A stretch of DNA of 63,274 bases, counting the filler, from Collodictyon triciliatum (lineage: Eukaryota), in NCBI GenBank assembly GCA_043381765.1. It is 16 parts of 16 records of this genome, joined end to end, with 100 filler letters (N's around TTAATTAATTAA, not from the genome) between each part and the next. Parts side by side here need not be neighbours in the genome. Positions count along the whole stretch, not along the records: positions 1 to 3,869 come from JBHJMP010006777.1; 15 more parts are not named here. One strand, given 5' to 3'. The notes beneath the pieces are model-generated. The model searched no databases. It saw nothing but the letters and a program-made list of their open reading frames with translations, and had not been told where the DNA came from. Below are positions 1,385 to 56,798 of the stretch, one piece after another (position 1 is the first letter of the stretch; the number at the start of each line of letters is the position of its first letter). A program made the position numbers and the translations under genes.

Positions 1385-2740
1385 TTAATTGATTTGGTCG
1401 TTTAGAACAAAGTCCAAGTGCAACTTGTATAAATGCTGCTTCTGTGATTGCGGTTGCTCTTCATTCTGAACACCAACGTCCCTGTTGATTGTATCTTCAT
1501 AAGTCAAGGGGATTGAGCTGGTTTGGGCTGCATCCCTTCTGTGGGGCGATATATTCATTTGGATTCCTACGGACTCAGATATATGCCTTTCCTGTTTTTC
1601 GGAGATTACTTCACTCCGCTTCCTTGCAGTGCACAAACGAAGCTGTTTTCGTATTTGAATCTTTGCTTTACGTATTGCAATAGCCCTCTTGGCCTCATCT
1701 AACACAGAAGCGTTCCCTGTTGAGTCTTGGGATAGGTCGGACGCCTTGGCGGCTTCCACTAGCATTACCTCCTGCTTCAGTTGCTGGAGATGATGCAAAT
1801 GCACTTTAGGGTCATAATTTAGTTCGGTTGGTGGCGATTCTGTTGTTTGGGGATCGGAACTCAGAGTTCCTTCGGCATTTATCCGCTGCAGCCACCGCGC
1901 CCGGCATTGGATATCAATTCGTCCGGGGATGTGTGCCGCTACTTTAGACCATGAGCTTGTACCGAATTTGCTGATTGCATCGATAAGGAGATTATCCTCG
2001 TCAGGAGACCATGTGCCTTTGCGGATATCGGGATGAAGGACACGTTGCCAACGTTGAGAACACTGACGTGCCGTGCGGTGGCCCATATCACGTGAAATGT
2101 CACTCCATCGCTTCCCCAGCCGAATCAGCCGCAGCAACTCAGCATCCTCGCTATCTGTCCAACCACGTGCGGGGCGCTTGACGGGCCGATTCTTTTGGAT
2201 CGTAATGTTGTGTATAACTGTTTTTGAGTTGGAATCAGAGTCTATGCTTTGGTTGGCATCCGAGTCACCTGCAGTGGTGGTTGTGGTGAAGTTCTTCAAC
2301 ATGAATGCGCTGTGAGAGGCCAAAGCTGTCATGGTTGATTCAGATTCTCTATCCCGATCAACGCCTGCAGTTATCTGCCTGACAGCTATAGAGGCCATTT
2401 GGCTGCTGGATTGGGTGCTATTCGACGATGCATTAGCATCCGCGGTAGAAAGATTGTCCAGCGCGAAGCCATCCTTGGATTTTTCCGTCCGTTTAAGGGA
2501 AAGCGCATAGAGCGAAGCATTTGTGTCTGCTATTGTTCTTTCATTCAATGGGCACTTAAGTAGGAAAGAAACCAGATGCATGGAGTCGATCTCCCTGCAA
2601 GTCAAGCCTCCATCTTGGCTGTCACAGCTGCTTTGGACACTTTCTTGCTCTGGGTCTGCACCCTTGTTGGCTTCAAAGTTCAAGTCAACTGCCATCCCAT
2701 TGCATCGATAGAGACTCGCAGCAAAAGGAAGATTCGACAT
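1385..2740 (-). CDS. R2R3-type Myb transcription factor
   Basis: 451-aa ORF with two Myb repeats: WTDSEDAELL...W..I....RTARQCSQRW and KGTWSPDEDNLL...WSKVA..IPGRIDIQCRARW. Confidence 0.92.
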   Translation of the reverse strand: MSNLPFAASLYRCNGMAVDLNFEANKGADPEQESVQSSCDSQDGGLTCREIDSMHLVSFLLKCPLNERTIADTNASLYALSLKRTEKSKDGFALDNLSTADANASSNSTQSSSQMASIAVRQITAGVDRDRESESTMTALASHSAFMLKNFTTTTTAGDSDANQSIDSDSNSKTVIHNITIQKNRPVKRPARGWTDSEDAELLRLIRLGKRWSDISRDMGHRTARQCSQRWQRVLHPDIRKGTWSPDEDNLLIDAISKFGTSSWSKVAAHIPGRIDIQCRARWLQRINAEGTLSSDPQTTESPPTELNYDPKVHLHHLQQLKQEVMLVEAAKASDLSQDSTGNASVLDEAKRAIAIRKAKIQIRKQLRLCTARKRSEVISEKQERHISESVGIQMNISPHRRDAAQTSSIPLTYEDTINRDVGVQNEEQPQSQKQHLYKLHLDFVLNDQIN

Positions 2741-3480
2741 GGTGTGAGGTAGTGACAGTTACTTCGGACCAGCTCCTGCAATCGAGATGTAATTTAGTTT
2801 AAAGTTAAAAATAGACACTGCGTGGAGGGTTGTCTGTAGACAGGATGGAATCAGTTATTAGTTCGTTTGTTTGATAGTGTTTGACTGTTTTTTTTTTTTT
2901 TTTGGTAACAGGCCCAGTGCTGACTTGGCGCACGTCATATTGTGGAAAACACCAAACATAAGACGTACAAGGCTTCGTAAGAGCCTCACCAGGTCAGAAA
3001 GAAAACATAAATAAGAAAGCCTGAATAGAATATACATTCCTTTCTCTTTATTCCATGCGTCCATGCCATCACGATTCTTTTCTTGCCGCCATATTGCCTT
3101 GTGATCGATATCATTTTGTTGGTCGTGTTGTCTGGTGTGATTTTTGACAGCCCATCCTTCTGCTTCGGTTCATTCAAAGTCCAATTTAGGGTGGGTAATG
3201 AGAATTTTTGGTTTGTCTAACATTTTGAAAACATGAACAATGTAGTGGTGGATGGCTGCGCTTCATGGCGGGATAGACGACGCAAGCGAAAATCACGTTC
3301 GCAGCTATCTTTCTTTCTACCAGGAGTGGGTTTGCATGAATATGATGATATTTAATATTTATCTGTTTATTAAGCATAGGGGTATTCGGTTGGGTGACAA
3401 GGGAACGCATTTCTATTCAAATATGTTTCACAAGGAAATTAAATAAAATATTTTTTTATTTATACGTTTATCATCGCGAG

Positions 3481-3869
3481 TTTTTCTTGGGTTCACTTTA
3501 TTTGTCAGACTTGGCCATACAATGGGACGAGATAGGTTCGCATGGTAGAGAGCAAACGCGAGTAAGAGAAGACACTACCGTGGAGAGGGTAGCACTGGAA
3601 AGAAATCAGTGATAGCGAGCTGGTCAGGTGGACGACCCAACTGGTTGATTGGCTGCGTGGGTAGCAGGGGTTGGATGTGCTGTCGGAGATATTGCACGAC
3701 ACATTCCCACATCTCTCTTCGTTTGCGGTCAGAGTAGCAAAGAATGCGGGCGTGTTTCAGCAGGCTGTTCGTGAAGCTGTATTGCACGAAGCTTTCTGGC
3801 CTGGATACATTGATTTCTCGTTCGGGTGAATCATTGGAGCGAGAGAATGCACGCACACTCCATAGTGAC
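3481..3869 (-). mobile_element. 3' end of a non-LTR-like retroelement, copy 1 (ORF end, 3'UTR, AATAAA)
   Basis: Clearly homologous to 51072-51403. ORF SLWSVRAFSR...QYSFTNSLLKHARILCYSDRKRREMW...QLAITDFFPVLPSPR* is open to the contig edge. AATAAA and an A-rich end follow on the minus strand. Confidence 0.75.
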
Positions 3870-3969
3870 NNNNNNNNNNNNNNNNNNNNNNNNNNNNNNN
3901 NNNNNNNNNNNNNTTAATTAATTAANNNNNNNNNNNNNNNNNNNNNNNNNNNNNNNNNNNNNNNNNNNN
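3870..3969. other. Artificial contig spacer (first of 15)
   Basis: N44+TTAATTAATTAA (stops in six frames)+N44. The same spacer starts at 7838, 11805, 15771, 19736, 23700, 27663, 31624, 35585, 39545, 43517, 47447, 51404, 55362 and 59320. Contig lengths fall roughly from 3869 to 3855 bp. Confidence 0.99.
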
Positions 3970-3972
3970 AAA

Positions 3973-4031
<59 letters not shown>

Positions 4032-7737: not shown

Positions 7738-7837
<100 letters not shown>

Positions 7838-7937
7838 NNNNNNNNNNNNNNNNNNNNNNNNNNNNNNNNNNNNNNNNNNNNTTAATTAATTAANNNNNNN
7901 NNNNNNNNNNNNNNNNNNNNNNNNNNNNNNNNNNNNN

Positions 7938-8239
7938 GCATATACTCACGCAAAGCAAGACTCAACAACCAGCCACCCATTCCTGATAATAGACTGGATG
8001 ACATCATACAAATCTCTTTCCTCAATAGCTTTCTTCGCCACCTGAATGTCCTCTACTACTCCGACCCCGTGAGAAGAGAGATGTGGATAGAGGCTGAGAA
8101 ATAGATTCAACCTCGCCTTGTATCTCTCATGCAAGCACAAGACCCAGGCTGCAGGCCAAACCGCAGGATGCAATTCCTGATTACCGACTACTTCTCCGCC
8201 ACCCGGCCAACAAGTAGCATCCATGCAAACGATGGCTAG
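7938..8239 (+). mobile_element. Diverged, stop-interrupted copy of the same retroelement ORF C-terminus
   Basis: Translates IYSRKARLNNQPPIPDNRLDDIIQISFLNSFLRHLNVLYYSDPVRREMWIEAEK*IQ...QFLITDYF...*, aligning to copies 1 and 2. Internal TAG at 8102-8104; lies at a contig edge. Confidence 0.75.
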
Positions 8240-8929: not shown

Positions 8930-11660
<2,731 letters not shown>

Positions 11661-12575: not shown

Positions 12576-14819
12576 ATGCAAGCAAAGTCTGCCGAGGCGT
12601 CGCTGAGCGCAAAGGTTTCCCCGCCCAAGGCCACTGTTGTTTTTATCACGGGACTCTTTGGAGCCGGCCTGAATCACCGCGCTTTGGAGCGGGTCAAAAG
12701 CGATCCCCGCCTTCGTGATTGTCGCATCATATGTAAGCGATCTATTTCGATCTTGCCCTGCATAGCCTCGGCAATTGTGTTGTTTGACACGGATATTTTT
12801 TTTCTGTTAAAAATAATGACGTATGCTTTTATATTGTCTTTCCTTTCTTTTTGTGTATTGTTTTATTGGTTTTATTGGTTTTATTGGTTTTATTGGTTTT
12901 ATTGGTTTTATTGGTTTTATTGGTTTTATTGGTTTTATTGGTTTTATTGGTTTTATTGGTTTTATTGTTTGAATGGCAGTTTGCGGTGGTCATGCTCTTT
13001 CATTTCTCATGGTATGTGAGCCGCACGATTATATTTCTTGATGCATAAAAATCACAGCCCTGACACCCGGCCCAGTCTCGTCTGCGAGAGACAGAGCCAT
13101 CGAATGCTTTTACATGCTGAAGGGTGGTCGTATAGATTATGGTCAAGAACACTCTGCCAAGGAGGGCCACGAAAGGTCTCTGCATAACTCTTGATGGTTG
13201 AAATGATGGGCTCTGATAGCAATATCCTATTGAAATATTAATATGTATATTATTTTTAATGATTTGTTTTTTTCATTTTCCAAAAAAAAAATAATTATGA
13301 ATTGATAAAACAGAAAATCATATTCTGATTAACATCACATCGCTGCATGATTTGATTTTCAAAGGTTTGGTCGGTGGGAAGAAGGTTTGATGCCCGAATG
13401 GGATGAAAAACATCCTATAGACCTAGTTGGGTATTCACTTGGAGCAACCACCGCGCGGTATCTTCAACACCTCCTCGTGAAACAAGAATTTTCAAGTTCA
13501 GTGTCTGCTGAAGGGAAGTACGTGACTCGGAAGGTATCTTTTTCATTCCGATTAAACATTCATGATTTTATATCGCACAGGGCAAAATACCACAGAACCA
13601 AGGGAACTTGGGTGAGGAGTATAATTACTATGCAAGGGGTGAATAATGGAACCAACGCCATTCATCTTCTTGGGTATTCTTTTTATTCACTTGAAAACAG
13701 CTAGCGATTCAAATTGGTGCTTTGAATCGAATAAAAGAAAAAATTCTAATCGGACAACCTAATATAATACAGTCAGGAGTATCAGTTGAATCATATGTCT
13801 TCTTTTTTTTAAAAAAAGAAAAAAACTGCATATTTTTACAGAATGGAACCGGAAACACTTGATATACGTCCTTGGACTATACTTTGGGTTATCTATCAAT
13901 TAATATATTTCTCTCAGTGGCTTTCCATACCAGTCCTGGACCAGTTTTGGCGACTTGAGAAGTGGGGGAGGTATGTTTAATGTTGTTCAAGATGAGCTGC
14001 GTTTTGTGAATACACTACCCTGCAAACCATCAATTCGAACCCCGCCCTTCATAAATACTCTTTTAACACTTGTGCATCTTAAGTCACATTTTTTTTATTT
14101 ATGACAATGTATAATGAGATGTCAACCTGCATGTTTTGAATTCATGAGGAACTATCAAATCTAAATGTTTTTGTGTTGAAGATGTCGAAGACATGGATAT
14201 CCTTTGATAAATCTTCTGAATGACCCTCCCGCAAGGACGGATAACGCCGGCCGTGATTTGTGTCCGAAAAGAATGGTAGAAATAAACGAAGAGATAGCAA
14301 CTACACTACCACAGAGACGTCACACTTACTATTATGCCTTCCACTGCCATACAACGTACAAAGTTGAACCTCTCGGGACGTTTCACATACCTCGAATCGG
14401 AAGACTCTTTTACAAATTCCCGCTGGGCCTTGTCATTGGTTTATATCAAATATAATATGCAGTCACATAAATCTATTTTTTATTTTTATTTTATCACAAT
14501 TTTTTCTTATTCAACTGCAAAAAAAAAAAAAATGCATCAATTTCGGAGACAATATTCATCAGAAATTGCTTAAAACTAATATCAGATACATAGCTCATTA
14601 CTCTCAAGCAATTACCAAATGTCTTATGTGTATTTAAAAGGATGTTTACAACGACTATTTCATCTACATAGGAACACTTGCTGCGCTGATAAGTCTCTCT
14701 GCAACTCTATCAAGAAATCGACTCTTTCAATTCTTATTCCCGAAATATTCGTTCAAGAGGAATGGTGCTGTGGACAAGTCCACTGCTGCGTAATGAACCA
14801 AAATCATTTGCTTTTTTTG

Positions 14820-14899
<80 letters not shown>

Positions 14900-15345
14900 T
14901 TTTTTAAAAAAAAAATACACGATTAGATGCGATTGTGTCTTTGGTCATATTATTCTTATTCTTATTCGTTATAATATTTGTTGTCTTTTATGCTCAAAAT
15001 CCAGTTAATGGCTTATTGGCACCAATTCCTTGCTTGCTTCACAGAGAGCGCATCAGCCGATTAGAAGAATGGCACCAGGCAAGTGACGGACTGGTCTCGG
15101 TTGCTGGTCAACGCCATCCGGAACATGAGACCGGGTTTAACTTTCAAGGGGCTATTGAATCTCTTGTCAGTGCTGGGAAGCCCCTTTCAGGGGTGTGGCA
15201 CAGTGTGCATATATCGGACGAGTGGGACCACTTTGATTCTGTTTTTTCTATGCATCACACACACGAAATTGTTGCAAACATCGTCTGGTTTATCTCCACC
15301 TTCCCTGCTATCACGCCCACCAGCGAAGCCCGCACAACTTTGTAG
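12576..15345 (+). CDS. Alpha/beta-hydrolase lipase (Staphylococcus/Geobacillus-type family), multi-exon
   Basis: Motifs [55 protein letters not shown] (nucleophile Ser), NNGT, SDGLVS (Asp) and WDHFD (His). Start codon is tentative. Confidence 0.85.
13720..13743 (+). mobile_element. Solo retroelement 3'-terminal motif in a lipase intron
   Basis: CTTTGAATCGAATAAAAG plus A-rich tail; the 16-mer is identical to the element end at 51080-51095. Confidence 0.6.
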
Positions 15346-15639
15346 CCCCTTTCAAAGCTCTGTTTGGTTAGCGAATATCCCAGAAGATGATGAATTTTGA
15401 TATAAGATAGAACCGGGTTTACCCAACCTGCCACCAACACAATCGAGGCGAGTGGGAATAAAAGTAAAAACGGAATCATTGCGGTTGGTGGCACTCACCC
15501 AGGTACTCGCTGGGTACCTTCTTGATACCTTATATGATACTATTCTTTGAACTTTCTGTTTGGTTTGCCCCATTCGACTGCCCATGACGACATTATTCCA
15601 AGTAAGGCAGCACTTCCGAAAGGGTTTTGGCAAATTGGG

Positions 15640-15770
15640 ATGTGGAAACTCATCACCAAACTGTGCGCAGACTTCAAAACACAGTTGCAACAAAGAACAA
15701 TCCCACGACCACCTCCAAACACACCAGAGCCTTTGCTGTCACGTTGGCAGATTCTATATACTCACTGCGA
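15640..15770 (+). mobile_element. Internal fragment of a repeated element ORF at a contig end
   Basis: MWKLITKLCADFKTQLQQRTIPRPPPNTPEPLLSRWQILYTHC. The last 14 bp are identical to, and in frame with, the start of the fragment at 55462-55665(-). Left boundary approximate. Confidence 0.55.
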
Positions 15771-15870: not shown

Positions 15871-18705
15871 ACCAGTTGGACATTTCTCGCATGCATTTGA
15901 TTGTTGATTGAAAAAGTATCCTCCTTGGCATGGACTCCATACTTTGATAAATGTGTCAGAGCTCGCTGAAATTATTTTCGAGTCAGGAGTAGCAAAAACA
16001 TTATTTACTGAATCTGTGTGACTCAAAAGAGTTCGAATATTCCTCCCATCTGATATTGTCCATATTTTTACTGATTTATCACTGCTTCCAGAATAGAGTT
16101 TTGTTCCATCAGATGTCACTGATATGCTATTGACTGAGCTTGTGTGTCCTATTAGCGTTCGAATTAACAAGCCATCTGATATGTTCCAAATTTTGATTGT
16201 GTTATCACTGCTTCCAGATATAATTCTTGTCCCATCTGGAGATGTAATAACACATCTGACAGCATTTCCGTGACCAGTAAGTGATTTTATTAATGTTCCA
16301 TCAGACAAATTCCATACTATTATTGAAAAATCAGAACTTCCTGATATAATTTTTTTATTATCTGGAGTGATAAAAATAGAATTCACTCCCTTTGTATGAC
16401 TCGATAAGGCTCTAGTTAAAATTCCATCTGAAACTCTCCAAACATTTATATTCATGTCATCACTTCCTGATACTATAACATAACTATCTGGTGATATAGC
16501 AACGCTTCGAACAGCAGCGGTATGTCCGATAAATGTTTTTAATTGAGCACCATCTGAGAAATTCCAAATTTTTACCGTCTTGTCGCTGCTTCCTGAGACT
16601 ATTTTTGTTCCATCAGACGAAACAACAACACAATTCACAGCACTTGTATGGGCATTTATGGATAGAGCTTGAGAACCATCAGCATAATTCCAAATCCTTA
16701 CTGTATTGTCACTGCCTCCTGACACAATTTTAGTTTTATCTGGGCTCAAATAAACGCTATTCACTGTACTTGTGTGACCTGAGACTGTCAGAATCAAGCT
16801 GAAATCAGGAAAATTCCACATTTTAATTGTTGTGTCATCGCTTCCTGACAAAAATCTTGAGGCATCAGAAATTATTGATATTCCATTCGTGGTAAATCCA
16901 TGTTCTGTAAGAAGAGTTATTGTGACTCCATTCGAAAGATTCCAAATTCTTATTGTTTTATCACCGCTTCCAGAAATAATTTTTGAGCCGTCAGGGGATA
17001 TCGAAACTGTTTTAACGATTCCTGTATGCCCGTTGAGAGTACGAATTAAACCTCCATCTAAAATGCTTGTTATTCTGATTGTTTTGTCACTGCTTCCAGA
17101 AACAATTTTTGTTCCATCTGGCGTTATAGTGATAGAATTGACCGCATCAGTATGACCTTTTATCTCTTGAACTAATGTTCCATCAATATAATTCCAAACT
17201 TTGATTGTTTTGTCAGCACTTCCAGACACAATTTTTGAATTATCGGGAGTTAAAGAGAGGCTTGTGACAATTTCAGTGTGTCCGGCAATAGAACGAATTA
17301 CAGTTCTGTCTGAAATATTCGTAATTTTGATTGTTTTATCGCTACTTCCGGATATAATTCTAGTTTCATCTTTAGTCAAAGTAATGCCGTTTACTGATTC
17401 AGTATGAATATCAAATGATTGAATCAAAGAACCGTCATCAATATTCCATACTTTGACTGTTTTATCTGAACTTCCAGAAATTATCTTGGAGCTATCTGCT
17501 GTTAAAGTCAGTGCGTTAACGACATTAGTGTGTCCAATCAATGACCTGATTAAATTTCCATTTGATAGATTCCAAATCCTAATGATGTTGTCTGAATGGC
17601 CTGAAATAGTGATAGATTTCATTTGAGACGAGGCTATGCTTGTAACTCTGGAACCTTTTGAGTAAATTGGACTTCCGTCAGAGAGATTCCAAAGTTTTAT
17701 TGTGTAGTCGTGGCTTCCAGAGACAATTTTTGAACCATTAGGAGAAACAGCAACACTGTAAACACTACTAATATGACCAGTCAGTGTGCTAATCAAAGTT
17801 CCATCAGAAAGGTTCCAAATTATAATATTTTTATCACTACTCCCAGAAATAATTTTTGAGCCATCAAGAGTAACAGCAACACTGTTAACCCTCGCAGTAT
17901 GACCAAACAATGTGCGAATCAAAGCTCCGTCAGAAAGGTTCCAAATTTTGATTGATTGGTCACCCCAATAACCTCCAGAAACAATTTTTGAGCCATCAGG
18001 AGTAACAACAACACTACAAACTCCTGCGGTATGACCATTTAGTGTGCGAATCAAAGCACCATCAGAAAGATTCCAGATTTTGATTGTATAATCCTGACTT
18101 CCCGAAAGAATTTTTGAGCCATCAGGAGAAACTGCAACACTCCAAACTCCTGCGGTATGACCATTTAGTGTGCGAATCAAAGCACCATCAGAAAAATTCC
18201 ATATTTTGATTGTATTATCCCAACTTCCAGAGACAATTGTTAAACCATCAGGAGTTACAGCAACACTACAAACACCACTAGTATGACCAGTCAATGTGAG
18301 AATCAAAATTCCATCAGAAAGGTTCCAAATTTTGATTGTTTTATCAATACTTCCAGAAACAATTCTTGAGGCATCAGTATTAACAGCAACACTGTAAACC
18401 TCACGAGTGTGCCCAGTCAATGTGCGAATCAAAGCTCCATCAGAAAGATTCCAAATTTTGATTGTAGTATCGAAACTTCCAGAAACTGTTATTGAACCAT
18501 CAGGAGTAACAACAACACTCCATACAGAATTGCTATGACCAGTACCAACGTCGTAAATCGAAGATACTTGTGCCATACTGGAGATAATATTTCCGAAGGT
18601 GATGAAACCTAGTCATAAATATTGTTACAATAGAATTAATTAAATATTACAACTTAATTGATAAAAACCTATCAGAATTCGCAGGGGTAAAAAGCTTTTT
18701 GGCAT
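15871..18705 (-). CDS. Signal-peptide-bearing WD40-repeat protein with Cys-rich repeat (3'-truncated)
   Basis: Exon 1 18705-18669, GT-AG intron 18668-18609, exon 2 in frame with the 917-aa ORF. About 21 GH...WN repeats, then CQGGYFFNQQSNACEKCPTG. Confidence 0.88.
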
Positions 18706-23799: not shown

Positions 23800-26700
23800 T
23801 GTCGTAAGACTGGCCATACGACACAGAGTAGACACTGAACTCTGGCGTGTATGTAAAAGTCCAGACAGAGTCGCCTTTGGTCCCAGATTTCACTACTTCG
23901 CTCATTGTTCCACAGGATGGTGTCGTTATGAGTGAGATAGTCAAATTGTCACCATCAGCATCGGTAAATCTTCCTGCTTGGGCAATCCTCACTGTCACAG
24001 TGGAGTTCTCGTTCACATACACGGACTCAGATGGGATGAGAATCTGTGAAATTATATTAAAAGTGTTACTATTATAATGAGTAATTATGAGTCTTAACTT
24101 AAATTAATCCATTTTTTATAAAAAAAAAAAGCGAAATGAATTGTGTAGAAAATAAAAAAACCTCGGGCGCGTGGTTGATGTCAATGACATGGATAGGAAC
24201 AGTGAAGACTTCAGTTTCAGCAGTTCCATCAGTTACATAATAGCTGAAGGAGCCCGCATCTCCGCTGATATAATCAATAGGCTTGAATGTAACGTTTGCT
24301 CCAGCAGCAAGGAGTAGATTCATGTCTGTGAAAGGCTCTCCGTTGATTATTACTGACCCGAACGATGAATCAGGCAGAGATGTGATACGAACTGACAACG
24401 TATCTGCTCTGTCATAATCCATGGCATCAAGTCTTACCAGTGAGTTGGGGACTGGAAGGGATATAATGTCGTCTATGCCGTGTGGTATCTCAAACACATA
24501 GATGTTAGAGACTGGAACAGGGATAGGCGCATGGTTGACGTGATTGACAAAGATAGATAGGGTTTGCTCGGCCGACTGAGAGTTTCCATCGCTCACGTGG
24601 TAGCGAATCGATGTCAGCGGACTGCCGAACGTATACTTCGGCGGTGTGTATGTCAATGTCCACTCTCTGTTTGCTCCTCCGCTTATCGCCGTGCTGTTTG
24701 ATACAATCTCGTTTCCGTCAGAGTCGATGAGGATGCCGATGCTTGGTAAGCCGCTGATGAATATCCTCAATGTGTCGTTCTTGTTGTCGTCCTTTGCACT
24801 CAGTGTAAATGTCACCGACTGGTCTTCATCAAATGCAGGAATGCTGGTGGTGGTGGTGACAGGTGCAAAGTTGACATCCGAGGTTCTCACCACAAGCTCT
24901 AGCTCAGTGGACTTGAGTCCGAGCGGGTCTTGTGTGTACACCTTGATTCTATCGACCTCACCGACATACAGAGCTGGCACAACAACATCGAACTTCCACA
25001 GTCCATCGGTCGTCTTTTTCAGAGGCTGGGTGATGTCAATATCTTGGCCGTCTTGCTGCAGCTTAATTTGAGTATTTGTGTGGCCGAGGATGTAAGCATT
25101 GATGACATCACTATCCGGGTCGACTCCACTTAAGACAAATGTAACAGTTCTGATTGATTGTGAATCAGGAATCGAGATATTCGGTTGCGCATAGATGAAA
25201 GGGGCAAAGTTCTTGTCTTGGATGTTGATATTGACTGGGAATGTCGTTGCTATTTCATCATTCCTGACGATTATATTGAAAGAGTCAGACTGACGTCCAG
25301 CTGAAACCATCACATCGGGTGCAATGTTAACATACAAGAACTTGGCCTTCGTTGTCCCAGCATAGGGTATAATGATTTTGTTTCCACTTATCAGATTGCC
25401 CTCTGTGAGTACGGCTGGATAGTAGAGCTGTCCAAGTTTTGGCAGCGAACTAAGTTCTAGTTGGACGTTGACTATGTTGTCAGGGTCAGGCAGTCCTTCA
25501 ACTTCGATTTCCATTGATTCTCTTTCGTTCAAGGAGGGAGAAATAGGGTTCGATGATACTTTGGGGGGCAATGCAGAGAAAAGGACATCAAAGGATACCG
25601 TCACTGAAATAGGAGCAGAGTCTCCATCGGTAATCGTTACTTCAACGGAATTGTAATTATCATTATCTCCTGAGCCAGCGCTTGGTGCTGTGTATTCAAG
25701 CTGAAGTGCTTCATAGTTATCATACACAGATGTGTGAGTAGCAGCCAAGGGAGTGTCATTGAGCTTGAACGTGCCCTTTGACGAGTCTCTTGTCTCAATG
25801 GTAATCCTCAGTTTGTCATCGACATCAAAGTCTTGTGCAATGACGATAAACGGTACAGCCTGTCCTCTTGTGGCGTGAAGCACTGATGAAGGTGTCGATA
25901 TTACAGGAGGGTGGTTGACATGGTTGACTGATATGGTCACCGTCGCAGATACAGAGTCTGCCTTTTCGTCGTTGGCCGTGTAGGTGAAGCTTGTGTATGG
26001 GTCTCCAAACGAGTACAGTGCGTTCAAGAAGCTTACGCTAGTCGACGACCCAAGTGTAAACGGTACGGTCGTAATCGCCTTCCCCTCAAAAGACAGCGTG
26101 CCCTTTGTCGGAAGGGTGCGGATAGTGTACGTGAGGTCTTCGGCTGGAATATTCGCATCGGTCGCCAATAATGTGATGGTCACCGACTTGTCCTCATCTG
26201 TGGTGATGCTAAGAGCTTGAGCTACAGGCGCGATGTTGACATAGTTTACCACAATCGGGACAGCCTTGGTGTCGGTCGCCTGGCTATTGTCGCTGACTTG
26301 TACGGTAATTTGATCAGTGTAATGTCGGTTCTGAGCAGGGGTGTATGTCAGAGTGGCGCCAGCTGATGTCAGCGGATAGACTGTGCCTGCCGTGATTGGC
26401 ATGTTGTCCATGGAAAGCGATGAACCCAATGTGGTAGGTAGACTCGTGACCTTGAAAGTCAGCGTATCTCCTGCGTCCACGTCCTGTCCCTTGATAACAA
26501 TAGACGCTGCAGTGTTAAGGTTTGTTGTTACTGTCGTGGGCACCACAGCTGTGGGTGCATGATTGACATGGTTGACGTTGATTGCAAGTGTCTGCTCATT
26601 CGATCGAAGCTGTCCGTCATTCACATAGTATCGGAACGTTGTCAACGGCTTGCCATCATTCAGCAGCGGTGGTGTGTATCGGATGGTGGTCACGCCATTC

Positions 26701-27662
26701 GTCATCACAAGAGGTGTGCTTGTTGTGACTGCTGCCCCGCCATATGTGAGGGTGCCGATGGAAGGCAGCTGAGATATGTATGCAGTGATGGCGTCTTGGT
26801 TGTCATCTTTGCCTTCCAGCTCAATATGGACGAAGCTGTCTTCATCGCAATCTGGTGTGGTTGTGGTTGTTGCCACTGGAGCGAAGTTGACGCGGTTGAT
26901 GGTAAGGCTGAGAGTCAGCGGGCTTGAAGTGGCTTGGAGAGAGTCTCTGGTGACAACAACGATGCTTGCGACTGTACCGAATGTCAGAGCGGGAACGTTT
27001 ACAGTTATAAGCCATGTGTTAGAGCCTGTGGGTGCTCTAAGGAGTGGGCTGTTGGTGGCCAGTGCGCTACCACCGTTTGTGATGGCAACATCCTTCGATG
27101 TGATACTGGTCACAGTAGCATTAATGGAGTTTGAATCTGGGTCGACACCGCTGACGGTGAATATCACAGTCTGTGCGGTTTGGGAGGACTGGATGGTTAC
27201 GGATGGGTTTGTTGCACTGACGAAGGGAGCAAAGTTTCTGTCAGCCACGTTAACATTGACTGTAACAGTCGAGCTCTTGCCGCTGTTTTGGCTCATTATG
27301 GTGTATGTATCAGAGTTGGCTCCAAGAGACACAAGCGCAGATGGTGGAATGGGCGCAACGTAAATAATTTGAACAGACGAACTACCCTGACTACCCGTGG
27401 CTATCAGTTGTCCACTTCGAAGAGCATCTCCAGTTACTTGCCCGAGTGTATTGGCAAGGTACAATTTTCCGTTCGCTGGGATGCTTGAAACAATTAACGA
27501 GACAGGGAGATTATCAGGGTCACTTGTGCTGATGGTAGTAATCTTCTGCTCCTGTTCTTGGATGGATACAGAGGATGGATTCGAAGAAATGGTTGGGTTC
27601 ATCGCAACAAAGGCGACGTTAATGGGGACGCTCACTAATGATGTTGCGAGTTGATTGTCAAT
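23800..27662 (-). CDS. Large tandem Ig/cadherin-like repeat (Big_9/tandem-95-like) surface protein, partial at both ends
   Basis: ~110-aa units NHAP/NFAP...DED....L.G.D.D....I.SLP..G.L...YTP...F.Y.V.DG. A GT-AG intron at 24161-24044 joins INHAPE|ILIPSESVYVNENS. Confidence 0.88.
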
Positions 27663-51756: not shown

Positions 51757-54640
51757 ACCCACGAAGGCTCTCCACTATGTTGAACGTCGACGAAGTCTGC
51801 TCCACACACGACCCACGAAGGCTCTCCACTATGCCGAACTGCGACGAAGTCTGCTCCACACAAGACCCACGAAGGCTCTCCGCTATGCCGAGCGTCGACG
51901 CAGTCTGCTCCACACAAGACCCACGAAGGCTGTGCACTATGCCGAACGTCGACGAAATCTGCTTCACACACAAGACCCACAAAGGCTCTGCACTATGCCG
52001 AACGTCGACGAAGTCTGCCTCCACACAAGACCCACAAAGGCTCTGCGTTATGCCGAAATATGACGAAGTCTGCTTCACATAAGACCCGCAAAGGATCTCC
52101 ACTATGCCGGACTGCAACGAAGTCTGCTTCACACAAGACCCGCAAAGGCTGTGCACTATGCCGAGCGTCGACGCAGTCTGCTCCACACAAGACCCACAAA
52201 GGCTCTGCGTTATGCCGGAATACGACGAAGTCTGCTTCGCTCACAAAACCCACAAAGGCTCCACTATGCCGGAATACGACGAATTCTGCCTCACACAAGA
52301 CCCACAAAGGATCTCCACTATGCCGAAAGTCGACGAAGTCTGCTTCACACACGACCCACGAAGGCTCTCCGCTATGCCGAAATATGACGAAGTCTGCTTC
52401 ACACACGCAAAGACTGCAAAGGATCTCCACTATGCAGAACGTCGACGAAGTCTGCTCCACACACAAGACCCACAAAGGCTGTGCGTTATGCCGAACGTCG
52501 ACGAAGTCTGCTCCACATAAGACCCGCAAAGGCTCTCCACTATGCCGAACGTCGACGAAGTCTGCTTCACACAATACCCGCAAAGGCTCTCCACTATGCC
52601 CGGAATACGACGCAGTCTGCTCCACACAAGACCCGCAAAAGATCTCCACTATGCCGAACGTCGACGAAGTCTGCTTCACACAAGAACTGCAAAGGCTCTG
52701 CACTATGCCGGGATGCGACGCAGTCTGCTCCACACAAGACCCGCATGGCCCTCCACTATGCCGAACGTCGACAAAGTCTGCTCCACACACGCAAGACCCG
52801 CAAAGGTGCTCCGCTACACTGAACGTCGACGAAGTCTGCGTCACATAAGACCTGCAAAGGCTCTCCATTGTGCCGGACTGCAACGAAGTCTGCTTCGCAC
52901 ACACAACCCTCGAAGGCTCTCCACTACGCCCGAACGTCGACGAATTCTACTTCACACAAGACCCACAAAGGCTGTGCGTTATGCCGAACGTCGACGAAGT
53001 CTGCTTCACACACGCAAAGACTGCAAAGGCTGTGCACTATGCCGAACGTCGACGAGGTCTGCTTCATACACAAGACCCGCAAAGGATCTCCACTATGCAG
53101 AACGTCGACGAAGTCTGCTCCACACACAAGACCCGCAAGGGCTCTCCACTATGCCGAACGTCGACGAAGTCTGCTTCGCTCAAGACCCACGAAGGCTGTG
53201 CGTTATGCCGAACGTCGACGAAGTCTGCTCCACACAAGACCCGCATGGCTCTCCACTATGCCGAACGTCGACAAAGTCTGCTCCACACAAGACCCGCAAA
53301 GGCTCTGCACTATGCCGGAATACGACGCAGTCTGCTTCACACACAACCCGCAAAGGCTCTCCACTATGCCGAACGTCGACGCAGTCTGCTTCACAAACAC
53401 ACAAAACCCTCGAAGGCTCTCCACTATGCCGGGATGCGACGAAGTCTGCTTCACACAAGACCCGCGAAGGCTGTGCACTATGCCGAACGTCGACGAAGTC
53501 TGCTTCACACAAGACCCGCAAAGGCTGTGCACTATGCCGAGCGTTGACGCAGTCTGCTCCACACAAGACCCACGAAGGCTCTCCACTATGCCGGAATACG
53601 ACGAATTCTGCTTCACACAAGACCCACGAAGGCTCTCCACTATGCCGAACGTCGACAAAGTCTACTCCACACACGCAAGACCCGCAAAGGTGCTCCGCTG
53701 CACTGAACGTCGACGAAGTCTGCTTCACATAAGACCTGCAAAGGCTCTCCGCTATGCCGGAATATGACGAAGTCTGCCTCACACAAGACACACGAAGGCT
53801 CTCCACTATGCCGAACGTCGACGAAGTCTGCTTCGCACACACAACCCTCGAAGGCTCTCCACTACGCCCGAACGTCGACGAATTCTGCTTCACACAAGAC
53901 CCGCGAAGGCTCTCCACTATGCCGAACGTCGACGAATTCTGCTTCACACAAGACCCACAAAGGCTGTGCGTTATGCCGAACGTCGACGAAGTCTGGTCCA
54001 CACAAGACCTGCAAAGGCTCTCCACTACGCCCGAACGTCGACGAATTCTGCTTCACACAAGACCCACAAAGGCTGTGCGTTATGCCGAACGTCGACGAAG
54101 TCTGGTCCACATAAGACTCGCAAAGGATCTCCACTATGCCGAACGTCGACGAAGTCTGCTTCACACAAGACCCGCGAAGGCTCTCCACTATGCCGAACGT
54201 CGACGACGTCTGCCTCACACAAGACCCACAAAGGCTGTGCACTATGCCGGAATATGACGAAGTCTGCTTCACACAATACCCGCAAAGGCTCTCCACTATG
54301 CCCGGAATACGACGCAGTCTGCTCCACACAAGACCCGCAAAAGATCTCCACTATGCCGAACGTCGACAAAGTCTGCTTCGCACACACAACCCTCGAAGGC
54401 TCTCCACTACGCCGGAATCCTGACGAAGTCTGCTGCACACAATACCCGCAAAGGCTCTCCACTATGCCGAACGTCGACGAAGTCTGCCTCACACAAGACC
54501 CGCAAAGGCTCCATTATGCCGGAATGTGACGAGGTCTGCTTCATACACAAGACCCGCAAAGGTTCTCTGCTATGCCGGAATACGACGCAGTCTGCTTCAC
54601 ACAATCTGCAAAGATGCTCCACTATGCCGGAATACCAAAA
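51757..54640. repeat. GC/CpG-rich 54-bp tandem array (~50+ units)
   Basis: Consensus AAGACCCGCAAAGGCTCTCCACTATGCCGAACGTCGACGAAGTCTGCTTCACAC, with CA-slippage length variants. Decayed units at ~54850-55030. Confidence 0.96.
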
Positions 54641-55461: not shown

Positions 55462-55665
55462 TGGCTGTGCATCTTGTGTGCGGAATGCGGTGGAGCCTGG
55501 CGTTGTGATGTATGAGCCGTCTTCTTTGAATGAGATTTCTCTGATGGTGGCCGCGTTGCCTTCGTGAGTCTGTTTGATGATGCAGAAGCTTTTCTGGTTG
55601 TCCCAGCATATTTGTCCTGCTGCCAATGGCTCGTTCAGGGGTATTGTCATTTCGCAGTGAGTATA
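55462..55665 (-). mobile_element. 5'-truncated internal fragment of a repeated element ORF
   Basis: YTHCEMTIPLNEPLAAGQICWDNQKSFCIIKQ... is open to the contig edge and continues the frame that ends at 15770. Confidence 0.55.
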
Positions 55666-56798
55666 CATCTAAAAGGGTCACTGTGAGTGTCGTAGTGATG
55701 CTTTCAACGATTAAATGACATCTTGCATCCTGATTTCGCGAAAGCGATTCCACTCCTCCAACTAAACTCCCATTAATATAGCCTATCTTTGAATACAAGT
55801 CATCCAGCGATTAACCATATCTCTTTCTTTTTGGCAACCCCAAACTTATCGATGCGTTTATCATTGACTGTAATCCACCTATTTATCACATAGCCAACAT
55901 AAACACAGTTTTTAACATCACAAGTTAAACACTCGAAACATTTACAAGAAAAAAAAAAGTCGCACCCAGTACATATACCATATTGCTTCATCAGTTTCAC
56001 ACTCAACCCACCAGCAATTCTAAGGCCAACGCAAGTGATTCCAATTTGATGTAGGGTGTGCCACTGACCCGAACCTCGAAAGAAGGGTAAACAGACCCAC
56101 CCCTAAAGAAAGAAAGATTGTGCTAGTTTTTCGGCTTATTGATTGCTTTGGGTCGTGTGCATAAAGGTCGGCGAAATATGAGTCCCGTACCAGAACCAGA
56201 CGACACGTCCTTCCTGCCACACGAAAGTAGTGATGGTGCATCCAACCCCTTATACCCCACATTGTATTTTTCTTATGGGGACTATACATCATGGATATTT
56301 TTGTACATGCTTTGTGTAAATGAACTTACTTCAATAAATATGTTTCGTAAAATATACAAACACAAAGCAGCAGTATGCCTTCCTTTAATAGACAAGAGGA
56401 AATGAGGAACTCTCCGAGTGGCCATACAGACTAATGAGCCGCAGGAAGGTCGAAGGTGGAAAATCTGGACATATCCCGCGCCCATGTGCGCAAGCAGCAA
56501 GCTTCTGGGTTTGTCTCAAAGAGGTTTCTGAGCAACAGCATCACACTTATCCATTCATTTATTGAACTCTGCATTCACACCATCCGACTCATGGCAGTGC
56601 CCTGACATCCCAAGCGCACGCATTGAAGATATCGAACCACGGGTCACAAGTCATGTATCCTTTATTATTCACGAAACCGTCGACTTGAAACAAGTAGAAA
56701 AGAAAAGTAGAAAAAGAAGAAAACGCGCAACACCTTGACTATTCTCCCTCACAGCCTTAGAACCCGCTCGTAGGGTTTCCCACCACACTTGTGCCACA

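What the first reader, a model, noticed from the sequence alone, without database searches (positions are those of the whole stretch)
3575..3869. Retroelement ORF ends in a conserved canonical PCNA-binding PIP box
Seen: three copies end in QLAITDFF (3599-3622), QLAITDFF (51193-51216) and QFLITDYF (8171-8194). The third copy is strongly diverged in the linker yet keeps Q-x-x-I-T-D-aromatic-aromatic. Known: this is the PIP consensus with the p21-type TD pair. Human L1 ORF2p has an internal PIP between EN and RT, and pogo-family transposases have C-terminal ones. Inference: the W..R...W pattern, AATAAA/A tail and TSD-flanked derivatives suggest an L1/Tx1-like ORF2 with a C-terminal PCNA-tethering tail, coupling insertion to replication or repair. 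The RT domain itself is not in this window.
Basis: partly seen in the sequence, partly recalled or inferred. Interest (0 to 1): 0.7.

Follow-up and report, generated by a model that had tools for sequence, protein, structure and literature searches.

The report
LINE retroelement tail with PCNA-docking motif
A repeated LINE-type jumping gene in this eukaryote ends its main protein in a short, strongly conserved tag of the kind that replication and repair proteins use to dock on the DNA sliding clamp PCNA, but binding has not been tested.

Summary
The three motifs are at the stated coordinates: QLAITDFF twice and QFLITDYF once. The motif lies 7 residues (copies 1 and 2) or 14 residues (copy 3) before the stop, not at the very end.

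Three subfamilies share 1 of 28 linker residues but keep Q..IT[DN][FY]F. Ten of 12 sequences spanning the site have a canonical PIP box, and 9 have the TD pair. The conserved residues use different codons between subfamilies, tail dN/dS is 0.09-0.39, and the motif lies in a predicted disordered tail.

PCNA binding is inferred only; the complex prediction never ran. My six literature searches found no C-terminal PIP box in a LINE. I rate this a new variant of a known kind.

The parts
3578..3869 (-). Copy 1 (subfamily A). The last 97 codons of the retroelement ORF2, cut by the contig end at 3869. Stop TAG at 3575-3577.
   Evidence: ORF. It is 91% identical to P0011 residues 307-359. Metagenome contigs continue upstream of 3864 (loose ends).
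3599..3622 (-). PIP-box-like motif QLAITDFF of copy 1, 7 residues before the stop.
   Evidence: It lies in the tail (residues 72-97) with pLDDT below 50, with a one-turn helix at residues 86-89.
3481..3574 (-). 3' UTR of copy 1. Positions 3514-3574 are shared with copy 2. Positions 3481-3513 are a variant tail with AATAAA (3497-3502) and an A5 run (3481-3485).
   Evidence: The terminal 23-mer is found only at 3514 and 51110. Assigning 3481-3513 to the element is my reading.
51172..51403 (-). Copy 2 (subfamily A). The last 77 codons of ORF2, cut by the contig end. Stop at 51169-51171.
   Evidence: It is 87% amino-acid and 88.9% DNA identical to copy 1.
51193..51216 (-). PIP-box-like motif QLAITDFF of copy 2. 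The Q codon is CAA, against CAG in copy 1.
51072..51168 (-). 3' UTR of copy 2, ending in AATAAA (51080-51085) and an A7 run (51072-51078). The flank differs beyond that.
   Evidence: The same tail with A10 is in metagenome locus L001, followed by a different flank. The same tail appears as a loose end before 3514 in run X2.
7938..8239 (+). Copy 3 (subfamily C). A decayed C-terminal fragment with an in-frame TAG at 8102-8104 and stop at 8237-8239.
   Evidence: It is 88% identical to P0012 residues 103-196.
8171..8194 (+). PIP-box-like motif QFLITDYF of copy 3, followed by SATR (R at +4) and preceded by NRRM.
15615..15770 (+). Fragment of the same element from further upstream in the ORF (between the expected RT and the zinc knuckle), frameshifted, running into the end of contig 4.
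   Evidence: tblastn with P0013 residues 9-59. ORFs. No Pfam family found.
55462..55668 (-). Fragment of the element (subfamily C, upstream of the zinc knuckle) at the start of contig 15. It is 5'-truncated near 55666.
   Evidence: 97% identical to P0014 residues 1-63. No homology to the contig 4 copy upstream of the shared 14 nt. No RT family in upstream ORFs.

Best explanation
The three sites are the 3' ends of copies of a non-LTR (LINE, L1-like) retrotransposon of a eukaryote. The assembly broke inside this repeat. Its ORF2 protein ends with a C-terminal domain like that of human L1 ORF2p, including a C-x2-C-x8-H-x4-C zf-RVT knuckle just upstream of what the window holds. After that comes a poorly conserved, proline-rich, probably disordered linker of about 15-30 residues, and then a canonical high-affinity-type PIP box, Q-x-x-I-T-D-[FY]-F, 7-14 residues before the stop.

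The most likely function is that this exposed tail docks into the hydrophobic pocket under the interdomain connector loop of DNA-loaded PCNA. That would bring or hold the ORF2p-RNA particle at primer ends, nicks or replication forks during target-primed reverse transcription. It could also bring in PCNA's other clients, such as RNase H2, flap and ligation enzymes, to finish the insertion.

Shown here: the motif, its selective conservation, its position in a predicted disordered tail, and the LINE-type C-terminal domain, 3' end and 5' truncation. Inferred: the presence of RT and endonuclease upstream, PCNA binding, and what that binding is used for.
For: Retroelement identity:
- A HMMER scan of 1.84 billion proteins gave 7 hits at E<=0.001. 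Six are short metagenome fragments of this family and 1 (P0002) is a spurious repeat protein.
- All 4 relatives that span the knuckle region match Pfam zf-RVT PF13966 above its 27.5-bit cutoff: P0003 36.4, P0004 33.0, P0011 32.3 and P0012 31.2 bits.
- P0004 and P0011 overlap copy 1 at 85-91% identity.
- The 3' end is AATAAA plus A7 (copy 2) or A10 (L001), followed by unrelated flanks.
- The contig 15 copy is 5'-truncated.
- Five of the 16 contigs end in the element.

Motif under selection:
- 12 sequences span the site. These are 3 window copies, L001, P0001, P0003, P0006, P0007, P0008, P0009, P0010 and P0012. Ten of the 12 keep Q-x-x-I-x-x-[FY]-[FY] and 9 of 12 keep TD.
- Across subfamily representatives A, B and C, 1 of 28 linker columns is identical against 4 of 8 motif columns.
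- Between copy 1 and copy 3 (47% nucleotide identity over 69 codons), the five identical motif residues Q, I, T, D and F all use different codons.
- dN/dS over the last 77 codons within subfamily A is 0.23, 0.39 and 0.09.
- In contigs of 3 freshwater metagenome runs, 9 of 15 coding differences are synonymous. The only 2 inside the motif are both synonymous.

SLiM-like setting:
- The tail has pLDDT below 50 in both models: P0003 residues 228-253 and copy 1 residues 72-97, the latter with a one-turn helix at 86-89.

Motif quality, from papers read as passages:
- The Pogo PIP QKKITDYF and the Cdt1 PIP QRRVTDFF are among the tightest tested. I at position 4 and F at position 8 raise affinity in a p21 peptide (PMC8191301).

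Precedent:
- Human L1 ORF2p needs PCNA (PMC10830420; PMC7617806).
Against: - No binding data of any kind. The complex prediction never ran because the queue was full at every try.
- The RT and endonuclease domains were not recovered in the window or by walking upstream in the protein collections. The class assignment rests on the C-terminal domain, the 3' end and one truncated copy.
- The flanks of the motif in subfamilies A and B are proline-rich and neutral rather than basic, and basic flanks raise affinity in known PIP peptides (PMC8191301).
- Two of the 12 sequences have a broken motif (P0007, P0006), and P0012 has TN instead of TD. These may be decayed copies.
- The 12 sequences are not independent. 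Six belong to one subfamily and are nearly identical.
- FF-containing PIP-like motifs can serve partners other than PCNA. This last point is recalled, not checked here.
Confidence: 0.6

Rival explanations
1. The conserved tail motif is functional but its partner is not PCNA. It could be another FF- or aromatic-binding protein of repair or replication, an import or chaperone factor, or an intramolecular contact with the rest of ORF2p or its RNA.
For: Conservation shows selection but does not identify the partner. In human L1 the sequence that matches a PIP box (residues 404-419) packs against the palm and fingers (PMC10830420). PCNA binding there has been reassigned to a non-PIP wrist motif (PMC7617806). 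So a PIP-like string in an ORF2p has already been a doubtful guide once. The loose PIP pattern is common by chance (17 hits in the window).
Against: All four consensus positions plus the rare TD pair are kept. The TD-type pattern is expected 0.02 times by chance. The motif sits in a predicted disordered terminal tail beyond the folded domain, unlike the buried L1 helix. It closely resembles the experimentally tight Pogo and Cdt1 boxes.
Confidence: 0.2
2. The motif acts mainly as a PIP degron. Once the tail is docked on chromatin-bound PCNA, the protein is ubiquitylated by a CRL4-Cdt2-type ligase and destroyed. This would limit ORF2p to a short window, either as host restriction or as self-limitation.
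For: The degron signature Q/N-x-x-psi-T-D-theta-theta-x-x-x-R/K (PMC3973308) is met in full by subfamily C: QFLITDYFSATR in copy 3 and an R at +4 in P0012. Subfamily C also has basic residues just before the Q. That paper says the TD pair seems to be specific to CRL4-Cdt2 substrates.
Against: Subfamily A has P at +4 and subfamily B has H, so the basic +4 residue is not a family-wide feature. P0012 has TN. Whether the unknown host has the Cdt2 pathway is untested. The subfamily C copy in the window is a pseudogene.
Confidence: 0.1
3. The element is a DNA transposon (pogo-like or other DDE type), in which a C-terminal PIP box is already known.
For: Pogo, Tigger and Lemi1 transposases carry PIP boxes (PMC5371812), and the Pogo box QKKITDYF is very like this one. 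The catalytic domain of the present element was never seen.
Against: Four of 4 relatives spanning the region carry zf-RVT. The fold search picks only L1 ORF2p. The 3' end has AATAAA plus an A run. One copy is 5'-truncated. The terminal 23-mer has no inverted copy in the window, although the other end may simply be absent.
Confidence: 0.04
4. The motif is a chance match carried along by common descent, with no function.
For: The loose PIP pattern occurs 17 times in six frames of this window. Half of the 12 sequences are near-identical.
Against: Three subfamilies with 1 of 28 identical linker residues keep the motif. The conserved residues differ at synonymous sites. dN/dS is 0.09-0.39. Only synonymous variants occur in the motif across metagenome contigs.
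Confidence: 0.03

Closest known systems
Human LINE-1 ORF2p and its dependence on PCNA
   Different: In L1 the PIP-like sequence is internal (residues 404-419), forms a helix packed on the palm and fingers, and may not be the real PCNA site. An unusual wrist motif (W1011, I1014, N968) is now proposed instead. Here the motif is a textbook TD-type PIP box appended after the C-terminal domain in a predicted disordered tail. Sequence identity to L1 is about 10%. RT and endonuclease domains were not seen here.
Pogo / Tigger / Lemi1 transposase PIP boxes
   Same: A mobile-element enzyme carrying a canonical PIP box with an I-T-D-[FY]-F core. The Pogo box QKKITDYF (PMC8191301 Table 1) differs from copy 3's QFLITDYF only at the two free positions. 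PCNA binding of Pogo was shown by two-hybrid (as cited in PMC5371812).
   Different: Those are DDE DNA transposons. This element has a reverse-transcriptase-type zinc knuckle, a poly(A)-type 3' end and 5' truncation. The resemblance would be convergent.
CRL4-Cdt2 PIP-degron substrates (for example Cdt1 and Set8)
   Same: The TD pair inside the PIP box. In subfamily C there is also a basic residue at +4 and basic residues before the Q.
   Different: Subfamilies A and B lack the +4 basic residue. No evidence of regulated degradation. The carrier is a retroelement protein, not a cell-cycle regulator.
L1/Tx1-type LINEs with the Pfam zf-RVT (PF13966) C-terminal knuckle
   Different: Clade membership cannot be assigned without the RT. 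I found no report of a terminal PIP box in such elements.

Membership tests
Non-LTR (LINE) retrotransposon, L1-like ORF2 | Reverse transcriptase domain (RVT_1 motifs) in the same ORF | tested here: inconclusive
   Not in the window: 9 ORFs next to the two upstream fragments gave no RT family. Walking upstream in the protein collections stopped about 270 residues before the knuckle. The only metagenome locus is 1157 nt.
Non-LTR (LINE) retrotransposon, L1-like ORF2 | N-terminal APE-type (or other) endonuclease | not testable with these tools
   No sequence of the 5' half of the element could be obtained.
Non-LTR (LINE) retrotransposon, L1-like ORF2 | C-terminal CCHC knuckle (Pfam zf-RVT PF13966) | tested here: met
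   P0003 36.4, P0004 33.0, P0011 32.3 and P0012 31.2 bits against the 27.5 cutoff. P0004 and P0011 overlap window copy 1 at 85-91% identity. The knuckle itself lies just beyond the contig end, so it is not in the window.
Non-LTR (LINE) retrotransposon, L1-like ORF2 | C-terminal domain fold like a solved ORF2p | tested here: met
Non-LTR (LINE) retrotransposon, L1-like ORF2 | 3' end with polyadenylation signal and A tail; variable 5' truncation; target-site duplications | tested here: inconclusive
   AATAAA plus A7 or A10 followed by differing flanks: met. One 5'-truncated copy: met. TSDs are not testable because no copy in the window has both ends.
Canonical PIP box (PCNA-interacting peptide) | Q-x-x-[ILM]-x-x-[FY]-[FY] | tested here: met
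   Ten of 12 sequences spanning the site. The exceptions are P0007 and P0006.
Canonical PIP box (PCNA-interacting peptide) | Lies in an accessible, disordered region or terminus | tested here: met
   Prediction only. The tail has pLDDT below 50 in both models. It lies 7-14 residues from the stop.
Canonical PIP box (PCNA-interacting peptide) | Binds PCNA, and binding is lost on changing the aromatic pair | not tested
No host PCNA sequence is available.
PIP degron (CRL4-Cdt2 substrates) | TD at positions 5-6 and a basic residue at +4 | tested here: inconclusive
   TD in 9 of 12 sequences. The +4 residue is R in subfamily C, P in A and H in B. The signature is taken from PMC3973308.
Pogo-like DDE transposon | DDE transposase domain and terminal inverted repeats | tested here: inconclusive
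   No DDE family was seen in any fragment. There is no inverted copy of the terminal 23-mer in the window, but only one end of the element is present. The positive LINE features argue against membership.

The most novel reading that the evidence does not exclude
A LINE family has acquired, independently of pogo-type DNA transposons and of human L1's own clamp-binding surface, a terminal p21/Cdt1-grade PIP box. In one subfamily this is a complete PIP degron (TD, R at +4, basic N-flank). If so, the retroelement's reverse transcriptase would be both delivered to DNA-loaded PCNA and then destroyed there by the host CRL4-Cdt2 pathway. That would give a built-in 'one shot per clamp' control of retrotransposition, or else a clamp-blocking activity that stalls the fork at the insertion site.
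Probability: 0.1. Interest if true: 0.8.

Novelty: new variant of a known kind. Interest (0 to 1): 0.55.

Why it matters
How LINE elements use the sliding clamp is an open question. Human L1 needs PCNA. Its textbook PIP-like helix packs against the palm and fingers of the polymerase (PMC10830420). The binding site has recently been moved to an unusual wrist motif (PMC7617806).

A distant LINE family that carries an unambiguous, exposed, high-affinity-type PIP box under purifying selection would be independent evolutionary evidence that clamp recruitment is a general requirement of target-primed reverse transcription, reached by different structural routes. It would also provide a simple peptide-level system for testing this. 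It would add a retroelement to the list of mobile elements (pogo, Tn7, IS families) that converge on sliding clamps.

If binding fails, the result is an ordinary LINE fragment with a conserved tail of unknown partner.

Tried and rejected
- Whole-genome search: no genome is held for this window.
- Pfam on the 97-residue window fragment alone: 0 families.
- Word-based search for longer proteins with the 97-residue query: 61 candidates, none at E<=0.01.
- ESM Atlas: closed or not holding the sequences.
- Metagenome locus search: the first alignment was too diverse. The second gave 163 pattern matches, of which only 1 was confirmed, the 1157-nt locus L001.
- Walking upstream: 2 hits, then only self. 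RT not reached.
- Profile of the family against PDB sequences: 0 hits at E<=10.
- Foldseek against PDB: nothing at E<=0.001. The top two rows were L1 ORF2p at E 0.14 and 0.25.
- P0002, a 2803-residue hit, is an unrelated internally repeated protein scoring by 16 summed stretches. I dropped it.
- Sequencing runs: 7 freshwater-metagenome holders with small shares (0.05-0.10) and no RNA holder listed.
- Laid contigs: run X3 laid nothing. The unique flank 3300-3513 was essentially uncovered, while 3514-3869 was covered in X1, X2 and X5. I read this as the repeat, not the host locus, being present there.
- Getting a eukaryotic PCNA through a locus handle failed.
There is no result of any kind.
- Earlier findings of this scan: nothing for this sequence or genome and nothing on retroelements. 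The 8 PIP/PCNA notes listed concern archaeal and giant-virus proteins and did not bear on this one.
- The Warbrick 1998 paper is not held. What I say about pogo two-hybrid binding comes from the review PMC5371812.
- No supplementary files were opened. Supplementary Figure S5 of PMC3973308 and fig. S12 of PMC7617806 might refine the comparisons.
- The A50 run at 3970-4030 was considered as a poly(A) tail and rejected. It lies in the next contig, beyond the artificial spacer.

Full report
**What the window is.** The 63,274-base window is not a continuous locus. It is 16 contigs of about 3.83-3.87 kb, joined by identical artificial spacers (N44-TTAATTAATTAA-N44). G+C is 0.40. Long intron-free ORFs encode Myb, WD40, LRR, HMG-box and cadherin-like proteins, so the source is a eukaryote. 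No whole genome is held for it. This matters for the finding. Each of the three copies abuts a spacer, so the assembly broke inside a repeat and only its last 230-360 bases are present. The long A run at 3970-4030, right next to the finding, belongs to the next, unrelated contig.

**The observation.**
- On the minus strand, 3578-3869 is an open frame of 97 codons that runs off the contig end. It ends ...GRPPDQLAITDFFPVLPSPR, then TAG.
- Copy 2 (51172-51403, minus strand) is 87% identical in protein and 88.9% in DNA. It ends ...QLAITDFFSVLASPR.
- Copy 3 (7938-8239, plus strand) is only 35% identical to copy 1 over 69 residues. It has an in-frame TAG at 8102-8104 and reads ...NRRMQFLITDYFSATRP....

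The motif is near the C-terminus but not at it: 7, 7 and 14 residues follow.

A bare match to the loose PIP pattern means little. It occurs 17 times in six frames of the window, against 6.1 in shuffles. The TD-type pattern occurs only at these three places, against 0.02 expected.

**What the repeat is.**
- The 97-residue fragment alone matches no Pfam family. A word-based search found no longer protein.
- A full HMMER scan of 1.84 billion representative proteins gave 7 hits. One (P0002) is an unrelated internally repetitive protein that I dropped. The other six, plus five further members of their clusters and two proteins from a later search, are short fragments (45-359 residues). They come from ENA and JGI metagenome contigs of at most 1.4 kb.
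- These fragments extend the frame upstream. P0004 and P0011 overlap copy 1 at 85-91% identity. About 70 residues upstream of where the contig ends, they contain C-x2-C-x8-H-x4-C.
- All four relatives that span that region match Pfam zf-RVT (PF13966, 'zinc-binding in reverse transcriptase') above the curated cutoff: 31.2-36.4 bits against 27.5.
- An AlphaFold2 model of P0003 (12-row alignment, mean pLDDT 58, core 70-78) was compared with the PDB. Foldseek's two best rows are human LINE-1 ORF2p, though only at E 0.14 and 0.25.

**Ends of the element.**
- Copies 1 and 2 stay alignable for 64 bases past the stop and then diverge.
- The one metagenome locus recovered (L001, 1157 nt; 163 pattern matches, 1 confirmed) shows that the copy 2 sequence continues for a further 38 bases of shared 3' UTR. 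It ends in AATAAAG plus an A run: A7 in copy 2 at 51072-51078 and A10 in L001. After that the two flanks are unrelated. The same tail appears as the loose end of a metagenome contig at position 3514.
- Copy 1 has a variant tail that also holds AATAAA and an A5 run (my reading).
- tblastn with the metagenome proteins found two more pieces of the element at two other contig ends, 15615-15770 (+) and 55462-55668 (-). So 5 of the 16 contigs break in this repeat.
- The contig 15 piece loses all similarity upstream of about 55666. Nothing RT-like lies beside either piece. The contig 15 piece is therefore a 5'-truncated insertion, and the 5' limit of the contig 4 piece could not be set.

Taken together, these features identify a non-LTR retrotransposon: a reverse-transcriptase-type knuckle, an ORF2p-like C-terminal domain, a polyadenylation signal with a short A tail, and 5' truncation. 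The RT and endonuclease domains were never seen, because two further protein searches ended before reaching them. So the clade (L1, Tx1 or other) is open. Target-site duplications could not be examined.

**Is the motif selected?** The sequences fall into three subfamilies:
- A: copies 1 and 2, L001, P0001, P0004, P0008, P0009, P0011.
- B: P0003, P0007, P0010.
- C: copy 3, P0006, P0012, P0014.

Twelve sequences span the motif site.
- Ten keep Q-x-x-I-x-x-[FY]-[FY]: six QLAITDFF, plus QTAITDFF, QTAITDYF, QFLITDYF and QFLITNYF.
- Nine keep TD.
- P0007 and P0006 are broken there, as expected of decayed copies.

The twelve are not independent, because subfamily A members are nearly identical. The informative comparison is therefore between subfamilies.
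- Among representatives of A, B and C, the two helices before the tail keep 11 of 33 residues, the linker 1 of 28, and the motif 4 of 8 (Q, I, T, F). Its other two constrained positions vary only D/N and F/Y.
- Copy 1 and copy 3 are 47% identical in DNA over 69 codons. The five motif residues they share (Q, I, T, D, F) are all written with different codons. The conservation is therefore at the protein level.
- Within subfamily A, dN/dS over the last 77 codons is 0.23, 0.39 and 0.09.
- Contigs from three freshwater metagenome runs cover 3514-3869 but not the unique flank. They show 15 coding differences from copy 1. Nine are synonymous. The only two inside the motif (CAG>CAA, GAT>GAC) are synonymous. 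The six non-synonymous differences fall at four residues (33, 44, 59, 62) at which copy 1 also differs from copy 2 and L001.

**Setting of the motif.** In the model of P0003 the last long helix ends at residue 225, and residues 228-253 have pLDDT below 50. In a model of the window's own 97 residues, two helices (22-46 and 51-68) reach pLDDT of about 90. Residues 72-97 are below 50, with a single helical turn at 86-89 inside the motif. The linker is rich in P, Q and G. This is the usual setting of a short linear docking motif. It contrasts with human L1, whose PIP-like helix (404-419) is packed on the palm and fingers (PMC10830420, passages).

**Comparison with what is known.**
- The PIP consensus and its degron form (Q/N-x-x-psi-T-D-theta-theta-x-x-x-R/K) are as given in PMC3973308. 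That paper also states that TD confers high affinity and is rare among PCNA partners (passages).
- In a systematic peptide study, the Pogo box QKKITDYF and the Cdt1 box QRRVTDFF were among the tightest binders. I at position 4 and F at position 8 each increased affinity in a p21 background (PMC8191301, passages and Table 1). The retroelement's boxes combine those features.
- Pogo, Tigger and Lemi1 are DNA transposons with PIP boxes, and human L1 ORF2p binds PCNA (review PMC5371812, passages).
- For L1, however, a 2025 study moved the PCNA contact from the PIP-like helix to an unusual wrist motif, based on AlphaFold3 prediction, pull-downs and mutagenesis (PMC7617806, passages).
- Six full-text searches turned up no report of a C-terminal PIP box in a non-LTR retrotransposon. 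This holds only for the open-access library searched. No supplements were opened.

**Mechanism proposed.** I consider it most likely (0.6) that the tail docks on DNA-loaded PCNA.
- Shown: the motif, its selective conservation, its predicted accessibility, and the LINE character of the carrier.
- Inferred: binding itself, and what it is used for.

The main rival (0.2) is that the conserved tail serves another partner or an intramolecular contact.

A bolder reading (0.1) rests on subfamily C. Its box is preceded by basic residues and followed by R at +4, which is a complete PIP-degron signature. The tail might then also mark the protein for clamp-dependent destruction. Subfamilies A (P at +4) and B (H at +4) do not fit this.

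A DNA-transposon identity (0.04) and a chance match (0.03) are poorly supported.

**What could not be done.** The full-length element was not recoverable from the collections available.

**Verdict.** The retroelement reading is supported by new evidence. PCNA tethering remains a well-founded but untested inference. This is a new variant of a known kind: a LINE that appears to have reached the sliding clamp by a terminal, pogo-like PIP box rather than by L1's internal surfaces.

Noticed in passing
whole window; spacers at 3870-3969, 7838-7937 and so on (15 in all): The window is a pseudo-molecule of 16 unplaced contigs of nearly equal length, joined by N44-TTAATTAATTAA-N44. Any feature that seems to span a spacer is an artefact. 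Five of the 16 contigs end in the same LINE repeat.
   Followed up: yes
51757-54629: A 2.9-kb tandem array of a 54-nt unit (52.5 copies, 79% matches; higher-order period 328). It is open in several frames on both strands and fills most of contig 14.
   Followed up: partly
15874-18612 (-): An intron-free ORF of 913 residues made almost wholly of WD40 repeats (19 stretches), with a 126/252-nt DNA periodicity in its 3' part (17674-18526).
   Followed up: partly
1388-2758 (-): A gene for a 457-residue protein with two Myb DNA-binding repeats lies about 700 nt from the 3' end of LINE copy 1.
   Followed up: partly
24102-27662 (-) and 28167-31310 (-): Two very long intron-free ORFs. One has bacterial-type Ig and cadherin-like domains (Big_9, Cadherin_4/5). 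The other has at least 9 LRR_8 stretches. These are unusual surface-protein-like genes for a eukaryote.
   Followed up: no
13351-15345 (+): Lipase-like coding pieces (a weak Lip_C match, E 0.0035) lie directly upstream of the LINE fragment at the end of contig 4, so that insertion may sit in or just after a gene.
   Followed up: no
3970-4030; 31365-31623; 7738-7837; 10494-10618: Contig ends and interiors carry long homopolymer and trinucleotide runs: about A50, 259 nt of mostly T (78% matches), (AAT)33 and (TTA)42. These are a likely second cause of assembly breaks.
   Followed up: no
41488-41733: A 246-N gap inside contig 11. It differs from the 44-N spacers and is presumably a scaffold gap.
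   Followed up: no
L001 about 560-600: The metagenome copy L001 has a frameshift between the zinc knuckle and the tail, while its tail stays intact. Copies decay individually while the family consensus is maintained.
   Followed up: partly
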